Source: a virus. From it: 17,365 nt of DNA. Positions within the stretch are counted from its first letter, which is position 1, and each line of letters opens with the position of its first letter. The notes under the pieces are model-generated. The model was not told where the DNA came from and made no database searches. It saw only the letters and a program-made list of their open reading frames with translations. Made by a program: the position numbers and the translations under genes. Below are positions 14,773-15,678 of the stretch, one piece after another. The stretch lies in IMG/VR virus record IMGVR_UViG_3300028833_002934; one strand, written 5' to 3'.

Positions 14773-14877
14773 TATTTCTCCGAACGTTTAGGGACTCTTT
14801 ATCGCGAAGCGATAAAGGGGCCCGGAGGGACGGAACCTACCTTTCATATTTTTCTTTTATCATTTATTTACATATAT

Positions 14878-14906
14878 ATTATATAATATTTTTTTTAATT
14901 TTTCAA
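14878..14906 (-). promoter_or_regulatory. Promoter module TTGAAA-17-TATAAT for gene 14377..14772
   Basis: Plus-strand tttcaa at 14901-14906 and attata at 14878-14883, with a 17 nt spacer. Confidence 0.5.
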
Positions 14907-15089
14907 CTATATTCTCTTATGCCTTGCTGAACCGATCGGGCAAAATTTTTTCTCTTTTACTGCGAGGACTTCACAACAGTAGTAGTCTTGTAAACCGCAC
15001 TAAAGAAAAAAGTAGAACTATGAAACTTTTATCATAAAATTTTTTGCGAGGTAATAAAGATTAAAATTTTAGCTTCTTAATATACTTAT

Positions 15090-15118
15090 ATTATATCATA
15101 TTTTTTTTAATTTTTCAA
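15090..15118 (-). promoter_or_regulatory. Promoter-like TTGAAA-17-TATAAT inside tandem repeat unit A
   Basis: Plus-strand tttcaa at 15113-15118 and attata at 15090-15095, with a 17 nt spacer. No ORF lies downstream. Confidence 0.4.
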
Positions 15119-15204
15119 TAAACCGGCCGGCTTATCTCATTAACCGCACTATCTTTACCTCTTGGAAACGTCTTACGGCACGAAAAAAAATGTCTTTTTT
15201 TTAA

Positions 15205-15233
15205 ATTATATCATATTTTTTCTTATTTTTCAA
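15205..15233 (-). promoter_or_regulatory. Promoter-like TTGAAA-17-TATAAT inside tandem repeat unit B
   Basis: Plus-strand tttcaa at 15228-15233 and attata at 15205-15210, with a 17 nt spacer. Confidence 0.4.
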
Positions 15234-15287
15234 TTATTTTTGCCTCTTGGCGACATTGCGGCATTAAAAAAAATAGTTTTTTTTGGT

Positions 15288-15316
15288 ATTATATCAAATT
15301 TTTTTTAAAAAATCAA
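15288..15316 (-). promoter_or_regulatory. Promoter-like TTGATT-17-TATAAT inside tandem repeat unit C
   Basis: Plus-strand aatcaa at 15311-15316 and attata at 15288-15293, with a 17 nt spacer. Confidence 0.4.
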
Positions 15317-15337
15317 GTATCCGATCGGCTTTTTTCG

Positions 15338-15425
15338 CAAAAAATGCGAAAAAACTAGTAAAAATGCGGTAAAACTAGTGTAAAAACGATGAAAAATAGT
15401 AAAAAACTAGACAAAAGCTCGCTTT
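15338..15425. other. Eight helically phased A5-6 tracts at ~10-11 bp spacing; predicted intrinsically bent DNA
   Basis: The sequence reads aaaaaatgcg aaaaaactagt aaaaatgcggt aaaactagtgt aaaaacgatg aaaaatagt aaaaaactagac aaaag. Confidence 0.5.
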
Positions 15426-15649
15426 TGCCTAGTTTTAACGCTCATATGGAGTTTTTTTACCGATCGGGCCATATACTAGCCCACTTTTGTTTAAAATCGA
15501 GCCGCATATGGGGTTTTGTTAAGACTCACCGGCCGGGCCTCGATCGTAACGCTGCGGTTGGAAAAAGTTGGAAAAACTTTAGCGATTTAGCGTAGCAAAG
15601 TGCACAGTTTCGGGAAATTATGTAAACCGATCTTTGTGCAAAATTTCTC

Positions 15650-15678
15650 TTGACAATTTTCCTAAAATATGATATAAT
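15650..15678 (+). promoter_or_regulatory. Plus-strand consensus promoter TTGACA-17-TATAAT with an extended -10 TGa
   Basis: TTGACA at 15650-15655, TGATATAAT at 15670-15678, spacer 17 nt. Confidence 0.6.

What the first reader, a model, noticed from the sequence alone, without database searches (positions are those of the whole stretch)
14775..15650. 0.9 kb non-coding control region: tandem promoter repeats, CCGATCGG palindromes and phased A-tracts
No plausible ORF exists here, yet the region is densely structured.
- Three degenerate ~85-110 bp tandem units each carry a minus-strand promoter module, a GC-rich element (cctcttggNNacNtNNcggca) and an A8-NNN-T8 palindrome (for example aaaaaaaatgtctttttttt).
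- The GC-rich 8-mer palindrome CCGATCGG occurs three times, at 14932, 15313 and 15463, plus related CGATCG sites. Chance predicts far fewer than one occurrence per 17 kb at this base composition.
- There are two copies of catatggRgtttt and repeated ACTAGT.
- Eight A5-6 tracts are phased at ~10.5 bp (15338-15425), which predicts strongly curved DNA.

Together this looks like a regulatory hub, for example an early/late switch, a partition or incompatibility site, or a second origin, rather than spacer DNA.
Basis: seen in the sequence. Interest (0 to 1): 0.65.

Follow-up and report, generated by a model that had tools for sequence, protein, structure and literature searches.

The report
Conserved tandem-promoter control region, huge phage
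This gene-free kilobase is a conserved transcription-control region of an uncultivated ~240 kb phage family, holding four same-direction bacterial-type promoters, bent DNA, GC-rich boxes and an opposite-strand small-RNA gene; it is an elaborate example of a known kind of phage promoter cluster, not a new kind of element.

Summary
Window 14773-15756 has no credible ORF under the standard code or with any one stop codon read as sense.

It carries four minus-strand sigma-70-type promoters (P1 14906, P2 15118, P3 15233, P4 15316). It also carries eight A-tracts phased at 10.4 bp and five CCGRYCGG boxes (three of them CCGATCGG, at 14932, 15321 and 15460).

The same 1.0-1.4 kb region (2.8 kb in one relative) precedes the homologous 131-aa gene in 13 related phage contigs. 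It is 85-95% identical between genomes whose flanking genes are only 59-82% identical at third codon positions.

- The "tandem units" are copies of a promoter type found across the window.
- The P4-to-P2 and P2-to-P1 intervals are paralogous modules.
- The A-tract phase is locked to the -35 hexamer of P4.
- The boxes sit about two helical turns apart upstream of P4 and P1.
- A perfect plus-strand promoter at 15650 drives a conserved ~50-85 nt RNA.

Best reading: a strong, probably factor-regulated promoter cluster with upstream curved DNA. An origin or partition role is not supported. The box-binding factor and the role of the conserved non-coding transcripts remain unknown. Novelty: new variant of a known kind.

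The parts
14377..14772 (-). 131-aa gene of unknown function, the only protein gene served by the promoter cluster
   Evidence: ORF. It has 36 homologues at 36-98% identity, each preceded by 1.0-2.8 kb with no called gene. The AlphaFold model is all-alpha with pLDDT 54.6. There is no Pfam or PHROG family.
14791..14823 (-). Hairpin in the P1 leader, part of a ~60-nt insertion found only in the window's own clade
   Evidence: Inverted repeat I14. It is present in win, L033, L004, L038 and L041 and absent in L001, L018 and L026. The whole leader folds no better than shuffles (z -1.2).
14878..14906 (-). P1, the gene-proximal promoter: TTGAAA-17-TATAAT, of the spacer-conserved class found across the window
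   Evidence: It is conserved in all relatives.
14907..15089 (-). Module B, the conserved non-coding stretch transcribed from P2 (contains CCTCGCA and ACAAGACTA)
   Evidence: It is alignable in all 13 genomes (nhmmer E 1e-47 to 1e-57) and paralogous to module A (E 1e-8 to 1e-4). Its short ORF is not conserved.
14932..14939 (.). CCGATCGG box, 25 nt upstream of the -35 hexamer of P1 (centre about -64.5)
   Evidence: Relatives carry CCGGTCGG or CCGGCCGG at the same place.
15090..15118 (-). P2 promoter: TTGAAA-17-TGATATAAT
   Evidence: It is invariant as TTGACAAATATAAAATAATATGATATAAT in the other clade.
15123..15130 (.). CCGGCCGG box, 4 nt upstream of the -35 hexamer of P2 (window's clade only)
15158..15233 (-). 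P3 unit: promoter 15205-15233, A8-N4-T8 15183-15202, GC-rich CCAAGAGG element 15158-15180. It is a clade-specific duplicate of the P4 unit.
   Evidence: Repeat family D1, 74% identity. It is absent in L001, L018, L026, L045, L047, L049, L051 and L054.
15243..15316 (-). P4 unit: distal promoter 15288-15316 (TTGATT-17-TGATATAAT), A8-N3-T8 at the start site 15266-15284, GC-rich element 15243-15263
   Evidence: The promoter plus A8-N3-T8/9 is kept in every relative, including the most distant one, L053, where it is duplicated. As RNA the A/U hairpin is worth only -0.6 kcal/mol.
15321..15328 (.). CCGATCGG box, 4 nt upstream of the -35 hexamer of P4 (centre about -43.5)
   Evidence: At the same place 10 of the 13 relatives carry a CCGRYCGG variant (AT, GC, GT or AC centre); L045 (CTGGCCGG) and L049 (CCGGTCGC) carry a degraded copy and L053 has none.
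15339..15416 (.). Eight helically phased A4-6 tracts (T-tracts on the promoter strand) with CTAG/ACTAGT cores, giving predicted intrinsic curvature upstream of P4
   Evidence: Relatives have 5 to 13 tracts, with the phase fixed relative to the -35 hexamer (-28, -38/-40...).
15403..15436 (.). Stable A/T-flanked hairpin, like a bidirectional terminator (window's clade only)
   Evidence: Folding gives -16.8 kcal/mol, z -5.1. It is not kept in the other clade.
15417..15510 (-). Two bipartite CATATGCG...ACAAAAGTGG boxes (15479-15510 and 15417-15448) flanking the CCGATCGG box at 15460-15467
   Evidence: Box 1 is 100% identical to L001 over 33 nt. Both boxes are present in most relatives, and a third copy lies upstream of P2 in the other clade.
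15529..15536 (.). CCGGCCGG box; the direct repeat GTTGGAAAAA x2 follows at 15557-15576
15577..15649 (+). Highly conserved block upstream of the plus-strand promoter (TTAGCGA repeats; inverted repeat TGCACA 15601-15606 / TGTGCA 15635-15640)
   Evidence: It is 91-96% identical in relatives. The number of AGCGATTT repeats varies.
15650..15678 (+). Perfect consensus promoter TTGACA-17-TGATATAAT; the only plus-strand site in the window scoring at least 11/12
   Evidence: Both hexamers are kept in 12 of the 14 relatives with this block (the -10 is TAAAAT in L049 and L051), with one or two spacer changes in some.
15684..15765 (+). Candidate small RNA: a GC-rich hairpin (CCGGGCC-GAUUU-GCCCGGG) with an alternative 7-bp pairing, then hairpin 15733-15758, which is shared as a terminator with the convergent 99-aa gene
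   Evidence: Fold -35.3 kcal/mol, z -4.7. The one indel falls in the loop. In L045 the RNA ends after the first hairpin plus a U-rich tail. There is no compensatory change and no Rfam family.

Best explanation
The region is the transcription-control region of a conserved locus in a family of ~230-250 kb phages that read TAG as sense. It is built from tandem copies of a promoter module.

Shown:
- Four (three in most relatives) sigma-70/sigma-A-type promoters, P4, (P3), P2 and P1, all point leftward at the 131-aa gene.
- The outermost, P4, sits directly downstream of an array of 5-13 A/T-tracts phased at about 10.5 bp, whose phase relative to the -35 hexamer is fixed.
- CCGRYCGG boxes lie at about -43.5 (P4, and P2 in this clade) and about -64.5 (P1).
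- A perfect opposite-strand promoter at the far edge makes a short terminated RNA.

Inferred:
- The curved upstream DNA wraps or contacts RNA polymerase and makes P4 very strong.
- A dimeric DNA-binding protein, from phage or host and not identified here, recognises the CCG..CGG half-sites on one face of the helix and co-regulates the promoters.
- Transcripts from P4 and P2 run through about 0.2-0.6 kb of conserved non-coding leader into the gene.
- The convergent small RNA and its promoter, together with the shared hairpin, insulate the cluster from read-through of the upstream small-gene operon. Such read-through would be fully complementary to the small RNA.
For: Promoters are far above chance and strand-consistent, and they are invariant across relatives. 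P1, P2, P3 and P4 share the spacer-conserved consensus TTGAAAAWTTWAAAAAAATATKATATAAT with promoters in front of genes elsewhere in the window (211, 2856, 5134, 7931, 10489, 12365). They therefore look like this phage's ordinary working promoters.

The A-tract periodicity is the strongest in the window. Its phase relative to P4 is kept while the number of tracts varies.

CCGRYCGG is specific to the region, 33 against 1. It changes only by transitions in its centre, so the degenerate palindrome is kept. The boxes upstream of P4 and P1 lie 21-22 bp apart relative to their promoters.

The whole region is 85-95% identical where third codon positions of the flanking genes are 59-82% identical. There is no conserved ORF. 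The plus-strand promoter and RNA block is the best-conserved part, and its strongest predicted duplex partner is the antisense read-through RNA.
Against: There is no expression data: no promoter, start site or RNA end has been measured. No candidate protein for the CCGRYCGG or CATATG boxes was identified. In the most distant relative the boxes read CCGCACGG, which is not R-Y.

A kilobase of conserved control DNA, 2.8 kb in L053, is a lot for one 131-aa gene. The transcribed non-coding modules are as conserved as the promoters, which suggests they have a function of their own that this explanation does not cover.

No terminator separates the modules. The A8-N3-T8 at the start sites has no explanation: it is not a stable RNA hairpin.
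Confidence: 0.55

Rival explanations
1. The region is an array of non-coding RNA genes. Each module (promoter plus about 190-260 nt) makes a functional structured RNA, for example a regulator, a protein sponge or an anti-defence decoy, and the promoters exist to express these RNAs rather than the 131-aa gene. This is compatible with, and could add to, the best explanation.
For: Modules A and B are paralogous, and a third related element lies just 3' of the gene. That third copy folds as a hairpin with 4 compensatory pairs. The transcribed parts are as conserved as the promoters. Module or unit copy number varies between lineages, with P3 in this clade and a duplicated P4 unit in a 2.8-kb region in L053. 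There is no conserved ORF.
Against: RNAalifold finds no compensatory pair in module A. In module A the outer stem seen in the 3' copy has decayed to 6 pairs and lacks a U tract (read). No terminators lie between the modules. There is no Rfam match. Most of module A is missing in the window's own clade.
Confidence: 0.2
2. The region is a replication origin that is transcription-activated or transcript-primed, like the T7 primary origin or T4 ori(uvsY). Promoters would fire into an easily melted A8-N3-T8 stretch, and the phased repeats and bipartite boxes would bind an initiator.
For: The region has 20-21 bp CTAG-T-tract repeats of variable copy number, bipartite direct-repeat boxes, extreme A/T runs exactly at two start sites, divergent promoters, and bent DNA.
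Against: There is no DnaA box with one mismatch or fewer in the region and no initiator or replication gene next to it. The repeats are low in complexity and phase-locked to a promoter. A much better iteron array, about 8 copies of GTCAAAAAGTTGGTAAATTTTACCGAGTTT, lies at 13290-13770, directly after an ORF. The GC-skew changes in the window follow gene orientation.
Confidence: 0.1
3. The region is left-over DNA: stacked intergenic cassettes (hairpin, GC box, AT-rich stretch, promoter) that remained after the small genes between them were lost, kept only because the promoters still work.
For: The small genes upstream are separated by a recurring cassette of variable hairpin, GCCCGGGC(GG), ATTGTTAAATAAATAAC and a TTGACA promoter. 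The modules here have the same order of parts.
Against: Conservation of the non-promoter parts exceeds that of third codon positions in all pairs. The architecture is kept down to 37% protein identity. The tract array and the boxes are specific to the region.
Confidence: 0.08
4. The region is a partition or incompatibility (centromere-like) site bound by a ParB- or ParR-type protein.
For: It has repeated short palindromes and phased direct repeats. A ribbon-helix-helix-like ORF lies at 12380-12658 (weak DUF6290 match).
Against: No ParA/ParM/TubZ or ParB gene was seen among the 16 window ORFs scanned against Pfam, 10 of them also against PHROGs. The repeats are tied to promoters. Nothing indicates that the element is maintained as a plasmid.
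Confidence: 0.03

Closest known systems
Tandem strong early promoters A1, A2, A3 in the non-coding left end of coliphage T7 (from my own knowledge, not checked in a paper here)
   Same: Several strong host-RNA-polymerase promoters point the same way and are stacked about 100-200 nt apart in a gene-free stretch of about 0.9 kb. A hairpin in the leader precedes the first gene.
   Different: This region is internal to the assembled contigs, with same-strand genes upstream. It has curved DNA, GC boxes and an opposing small-RNA promoter that T7 lacks. Whether it is an early region is not known.
Upstream polyadenine curved DNA that activates Bacillus phage SP82 promoters Alu156 and Bal129 (McAllister and Achberger, 1988-89; from my own knowledge)
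   Same: Helically phased A-tracts lie directly upstream of the -35 hexamer of a sigma-A-type phage promoter, and their rotational setting relative to the promoter matters. Here the phase is conserved in 12 genomes.
   Different: The array here is much longer (5-13 tracts), contains conserved CTAG cores in a 20-21 bp super-repeat, and is combined with a GC-rich box at -43.5. Neither curvature nor activation has been measured.
Central transcriptional control region of Bacillus phage phi29: tandem early promoters A2c/A2b and divergent late promoter A3, remodelled by proteins p4 and p6 (abstract of PMC3100819, listed)
   Same: Tandem same-direction promoters face a divergent promoter across a short A-tract-rich region that holds repeated binding sites. 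The architecture suits a protein-driven temporal switch.
   Different: No p4 or p6 homologue was identified. The divergent promoter here drives only a ~50-85 nt terminated RNA. The motifs (CCGRYCGG and the CATATG bipartite boxes) are unrelated to p4 sites.
Class I / class II activator sites of bacterial promoters (CRP-type, centred near -41.5 and -61.5; textbook knowledge)
   Same: Palindromic boxes are centred at about -43.5 and about -64.5, roughly two helical turns apart.
   Different: The motif is an 8-bp GC-only half-site pair with a 2-bp centre, much shorter than CRP/FNR-type sites. The binding protein is unknown.

Membership tests
Sigma-70 / sigma-A type promoters | -35 and -10 hexamers close to TTGACA and TATAAT with a 16-18 bp spacer | tested here: met
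   P1-P3 score 11/12, P4 scores 10/12 and the plus-strand promoter scores 12/12, all with 17-bp spacers; four of the five have the TG extension. Sites at this level number 12 against 0.5 expected.
Sigma-70 / sigma-A type promoters | Conservation across relatives and placement upstream of genes on the right strand | tested here: met
   The hexamers are invariant in 12 genomes. The same promoter type precedes other minus-strand genes.
Sigma-70 / sigma-A type promoters | Initiation demonstrated at the predicted start sites | not testable with these tools
   No transcriptome or in vitro data are available.
Upstream curved-DNA / UP-type promoter activation | At least three A-tracts phased at about 10-11 bp, immediately upstream of -35 | tested here: met
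   Eight tracts with mean spacing 10.4 bp, the nearest 23 nt from the -35 hexamer. Relatives have 5-13 tracts.
Upstream curved-DNA / UP-type promoter activation | Fixed rotational setting relative to the promoter | tested here: met
   Tract starts are at -28, -38/-40 and so on relative to -35 in all 12 genomes, despite indels of whole repeats.
Upstream curved-DNA / UP-type promoter activation | Anomalous gel migration and a measured effect on transcription | not testable with these tools
   This needs experiments.
Iteron- or DnaA-type replication origin | DnaA boxes | tested here: not met
   No TTATCCACA with one mismatch or fewer occurs in 14775-15650.
Iteron- or DnaA-type replication origin | Array of specific 17-22 bp iterons next to an initiator gene | tested here: inconclusive
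   Repeats of 20-21 bp exist, but they are A/T-tract based. No initiator gene is adjacent. A better iteron array lies at 13290-13770.
Iteron- or DnaA-type replication origin | GC-skew extremum of the whole genome at the site | not testable with these tools
   Only pieces of 14 kb or less of the ~240 kb contigs could be fetched. Skew in the window follows gene orientation.
Partition site (parS / centromere) | Adjacent partition NTPase and centromere-binding protein genes | tested here: not met
   None was found among the 16 window ORFs scanned against Pfam, 10 of them also against PHROGs. This covers only part of the window's ORFs.
Known RNA families (Rfam 15) | Match at the gathering score | tested here: not met
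   There are no matches at gathering score in the window. In 13800-15850 there are only chance-level hits, with E at or above 0.46.
Rho-independent small-RNA gene (for the plus-strand RNA) | Own promoter, stable terminal hairpin and U-rich tail | tested here: inconclusive
   The promoter is perfect and conserved and the hairpins are stable. The U tail is clear only in L045. No covariation was found.
Protein-coding gene missed because of stop-codon reassignment | A long frame opens when TAG, TGA or TAA is read as sense and is conserved | tested here: not met
   Reading TAG as sense opens real genes elsewhere, such as the FNT gene at 10913-11521, but nothing in this region.

The most novel reading that the evidence does not exclude
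The locus is not mainly a promoter region for the 131-aa gene. Instead it is an expandable array of promoter-driven structured RNA modules, paralogous to the covarying hairpin element in the gene's 3' end and numbering 2 to about 6 copies depending on lineage. Their RNAs, or the R-loops they form at the A8-N3-T8 start sites, would carry out a phage function of their own. Candidates are sequestering a host or phage RNA-binding protein, countering a defence system, or priming replication. The CCGRYCGG and CATATG boxes would be the switch that times their expression.
Probability: 0.2. Interest if true: 0.7.

Novelty: new variant of a known kind. Interest (0 to 1): 0.42.

Why it matters
Almost nothing is known about how uncultivated huge phages with reassigned stop codons time their gene expression. 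This locus gives concrete handles for experiments:
- A defined promoter consensus used across the window.
- A region-specific palindromic box, CCGRYCGG, that must have a cognate factor.
- A textbook-quality curved-DNA array whose phase is conserved.
- A conserved convergent small RNA.

The promoters are ordinary sigma-70 type and, in most relatives, the genes have Shine-Dalgarno sites. This also bears on host prediction for the lineage. If the non-coding modules turn out to be functional RNAs, they would be a new phage RNA family.

Tried and rejected
- Hidden coding gene. Six-frame scans under the standard code and with TAG, TGA or TAA as sense found nothing in the region, and open stretches are not conserved. 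Short ORFs in the P4 and P2 transcripts (MPGIRVPRGT..., MRSHGF...) lose their start, shift frame or gain stops between relatives, and most lack a ribosome-binding site.
- Known RNA. Rfam gave nothing at gathering or permissive thresholds; ARAGORN found none.
- RNA structure by covariation. No compensatory pairs were found for the small RNA or module A. The sequences are too similar for this to decide anything.
- A8-N3-T8 as an RNA hairpin. It is worth -0.6 kcal/mol, no better than shuffles.
- DnaA boxes. None.
- Similar DNA in GenBank phages. None by megablast or blastn.
- IMG/VR scans. The same single 239,565-nt contig came back every time.
- GTDB genome contigs. No match.
- Metagenome pattern scan. 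It gave 30 loci, of which 24 were GC-rich chance hits, discarded after BLAST.
- 131-aa protein. There is no family. The AlphaFold model was too poor (pLDDT 54.6) to justify a fold search.
- Trans targets of the small RNA within the window. Nothing stood out beyond its own antisense.
- Naming the phage clade from the stop-codon-recoding preprint. This could not be done from the text.
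Full report
**Context**

The window is AT-rich (31% GC) and reads mostly as minus-strand genes. It has no DNA match in GenBank phages.

Its flanking genes and a 19-nt GC-rich string led to syntenic relatives on large viral or metagenomic contigs of 239,565, 241,302 and 249,705 nt and other sizes. 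A 780-aa protein in the window with major-vault-protein domains is 39-41% identical to proteins of 462-735 kb uncultured "huge phages".

TAG is read as sense in at least some genes. A formate/nitrite-transporter gene at 10913-11521 matches its Pfam model end to end only if five in-frame TAG codons are translated. None of eight well-supported minus-strand ORFs ends in TAG. Because of this, "no ORF" had to be re-tested under other genetic codes.

**Observation**

The gap between the 131-aa gene (14377-14772, minus) and the 99-aa gene (15757-16056, minus) has no frame longer than 88 codons under the standard code or with TAG or TGA as sense; with TAA as sense, a code nothing here supports, frames reach 189 codons. 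The open stretches that do exist are not conserved in position across 12 genomes.

- **Promoters.** The scan finds minus-strand sigma-70-type sites at 14906, 15118, 15233 (11/12 each) and 15316 (10/12). It also finds a perfect 12/12 site with a TG extension on the plus strand at 15650. Sites scoring at least 11/12 with a 17-bp spacer number 12 in the window against 0.51 +/- 0.71 in first-order Markov simulations. Eleven are on the minus strand.
- **CCGATCGG.** It occurs at 14932, 15321 and 15460 and nowhere else (0.03 expected). CCGGCCGG occurs at 15123 and 15529.
- **Repeat units.** Only two units carry promoter, A8-N3-T8 and the GC-rich element together.
- **A-tracts.** Eight A-tracts at 15339-15416 have a mean spacing of 10.4 bp. 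They give the strongest 10-11 bp periodicity in the window.

**Conservation**

All 13 relatives examined have a gene-free stretch in front of the homologous gene. It is 1.0-1.4 kb, or 2.8 kb in one case.

Pairwise identity of the region is 85-95% within clades. Third codon positions of the two flanking genes are 59-82% identical in the same pairs. The region is therefore under selection and is not spacer.

**Anatomy** (minus-strand order)

1. A hairpin is shared with the upstream gene. A GC-rich stretch follows that is transcribed from the opposite-strand promoter at 15650.
2. A conserved block upstream of that promoter has TTAGCGA-type repeats of variable number.
3. Two bipartite boxes, CATATGCG-N~13-ACAAAAGTGG, flank a CCGRYCGG box.
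4. A phased T-tract array with CTAG cores follows.
5. A CCGRYCGG box lies 4 nt from the -35 hexamer of P4.
6. P4 is followed by A8-N3-T8/9 at the start site.
7. Module A follows. In the window's clade it is largely replaced by P3, a duplicate of the P4 unit.
8. P2 and module B follow.
9. A CCGRYCGG box lies 25-26 nt from the -35 hexamer of P1.
10. P1 and the gene follow.

**What the repeats are**

P1-P4 share a consensus that includes the spacer, TTGAAAAWTTWAAAAAAATATKATATAAT. The same consensus sits in front of genes at 211, 2856, 5134, 7931, 10489 and 12365.

The P4-to-P2 and P2-to-P1 intervals are paralogous (nhmmer E 1e-8 to 1e-4 in both directions). A third, weaker copy lies just 3' of the 131-aa gene, at window 14244-14356. 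That copy folds as a long hairpin with four compensatory pairs across clades.

The small genes upstream are separated by a recurring cassette: a variable hairpin, a GCCCGGGC(GG) box, an AT-rich stretch and a TTGACA promoter. The region therefore looks like stacked cassettes of the same general design with no genes between them.

**The GC boxes**

Across ten loci, CCGNNCGG inside the region always has an R-Y centre (AT 11, GT 11, GC 10, AC 1; 33 sites in 11.6 kb). Outside the region, 29 of 30 sites are the different motif CCGCCCGG/CCGGGCGG.

The real motif is therefore the degenerate palindrome CCGRYCGG. GATC and PvuI-type readings of CCGATCGG are incidental.

Box centres are at about -43.5 (P4; also P2 in this clade) and about -64.5 (P1), roughly two helical turns apart. 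This is the geometry of activator sites, and it is my main reason to infer a dimeric DNA-binding factor. No such factor was identified.

In the most distant relative the boxes read CCGCACGG. The half-sites are thus more constant than the centre.

**Curved DNA**

The number of tracts varies from 5 to 13 by whole-repeat indels. The tract starts nearest P4 stay at -28 and -38/-40 relative to the -35 hexamer in all 12 genomes.

This fits selection on curvature in a fixed rotational setting upstream of a promoter. From my own knowledge, the same has been described for Bacillus phage SP82 promoters. It fits less well with iterons for an initiator.

**The plus-strand RNA**

The promoter at 15650 is perfect and nearly invariant in 14 relatives: both hexamers are unchanged in 12, and L049 and L051 have TAAAAT as the -10. 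The RNA folds well (-35.3 kcal/mol, z -4.7).

The single indel falls in a hairpin loop, and one substitution gives a G-U pair. In L045 the RNA ends after the first hairpin plus a U-rich tail. There is no compensatory change, so structure is not proven.

Its strongest predicted partner is the antisense strand. That strand would exist only as read-through from the upstream genes. I therefore propose an insulating role by convergent transcription; this is inference.

**Rivals**

- **Origin.** An origin is disfavoured. There are no DnaA boxes and no adjacent initiator. A much more convincing iteron array lies at 13290-13770.
- **Partition site.** A partition site lacks par genes among the ORFs scanned.
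- **RNA genes.** An RNA-gene array cannot be excluded and may coexist with the promoter-cluster reading. The transcribed modules are as conserved as the promoters, but they show no covariation and no terminators lie between them.

**Verdict**

The feature is real, conserved and functionally dense. It is best described as a tandem promoter control region with upstream curved DNA, GC-box operators and a convergent small RNA. It is a new variant of a known kind of phage regulatory region, in a lineage with no cultured member.

Noticed in passing
window 10913-11521 (+), 12380-12658 (+), 12912-13292 (+), 10499-10888 (-): TAG appears to be read as a sense codon. With five in-frame TAGs translated, the ORF at 10913-11521 matches the Pfam formate/nitrite transporter over its full length (E 5e-18). 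A ribbon-helix-helix-like ORF and two others also open up. None of eight well-supported minus-strand ORFs uses TAG as its stop. No suppressor tRNA lies in the window.
   Followed up: partly
window 13290-13770: An array of about 8 iterons, GTCAAAAAGTTGGTAAATTTTACCGAGTTT (palindromic core CGGTAAAATTTACCG), lies directly after the TAG-containing ORF 12912-13292. It is partly conserved in relatives. It is a better origin or centromere candidate than the finding itself.
   Followed up: partly
window 14244-14356 (-), just 3' of the 131-aa gene: A conserved structured element has its outer stem GAAACTCGTAG/CTACGAGTTTC replaced by AACTCGTAT/ATACGAGTT in the other clade, and by a different 13-bp stem in L055. 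It has 4 compensatory pairs and is weakly homologous to the non-coding modules upstream of the gene.
   Followed up: partly
window 16778-16860 (-); L018, L026, L001 at many sites: A recurrent intergenic cassette separates the small genes: a hairpin that varies in sequence but keeps its stem, then a constant GCCCGGGC(GG) box, then ATTGTTAAATAAATAAC..., then a TTGACA-17-TATAAT promoter. CCGCCCGG/CCGGGCGG occurs 29 times in 82.6 kb of DNA at about 35% GC. The hairpins have no U tract, so they are not canonical terminators.
   Followed up: partly
window 211, 2856, 5134, 7931, 10489, 12365, 14906, 15118 (-): A promoter family with a conserved spacer and downstream sequence (TTGAAAAWTTWAAAAAAATATKATATAAT-ATATATAG...AGGAG) differs from the TTGACA promoters with unrelated spacers at 16241, 16778 and 17328. 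There may be two temporal promoter classes.
   Followed up: partly
window 7978-10320 (-): A 780-aa protein has major-vault-protein shoulder and repeat domains (Pfam E 1.7e-20 and 1.3e-8). Its closest GenBank phage matches are uncultured huge phages of 462-735 kb (LR756500, LR756501, LR756503), at 39-41% identity.
   Followed up: partly
L053 231-3000: The most distant relative has 2.8 kb with no called gene before the homologous gene. It has a duplicated P4 plus A9-N3-T7 unit, several GAATTTGCC(A/G)CG... repeats, further 60-90 nt direct repeats, and CCGCACGG boxes.
   Followed up: partly
window 13778-14010: An AT-only low-complexity stretch (TATATAATA repeats) and tandem GAAATGAAAAA-type repeats of 26-28 nt lie next to a minus-strand terminator-like hairpin at 13976-14017.
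   Followed up: no
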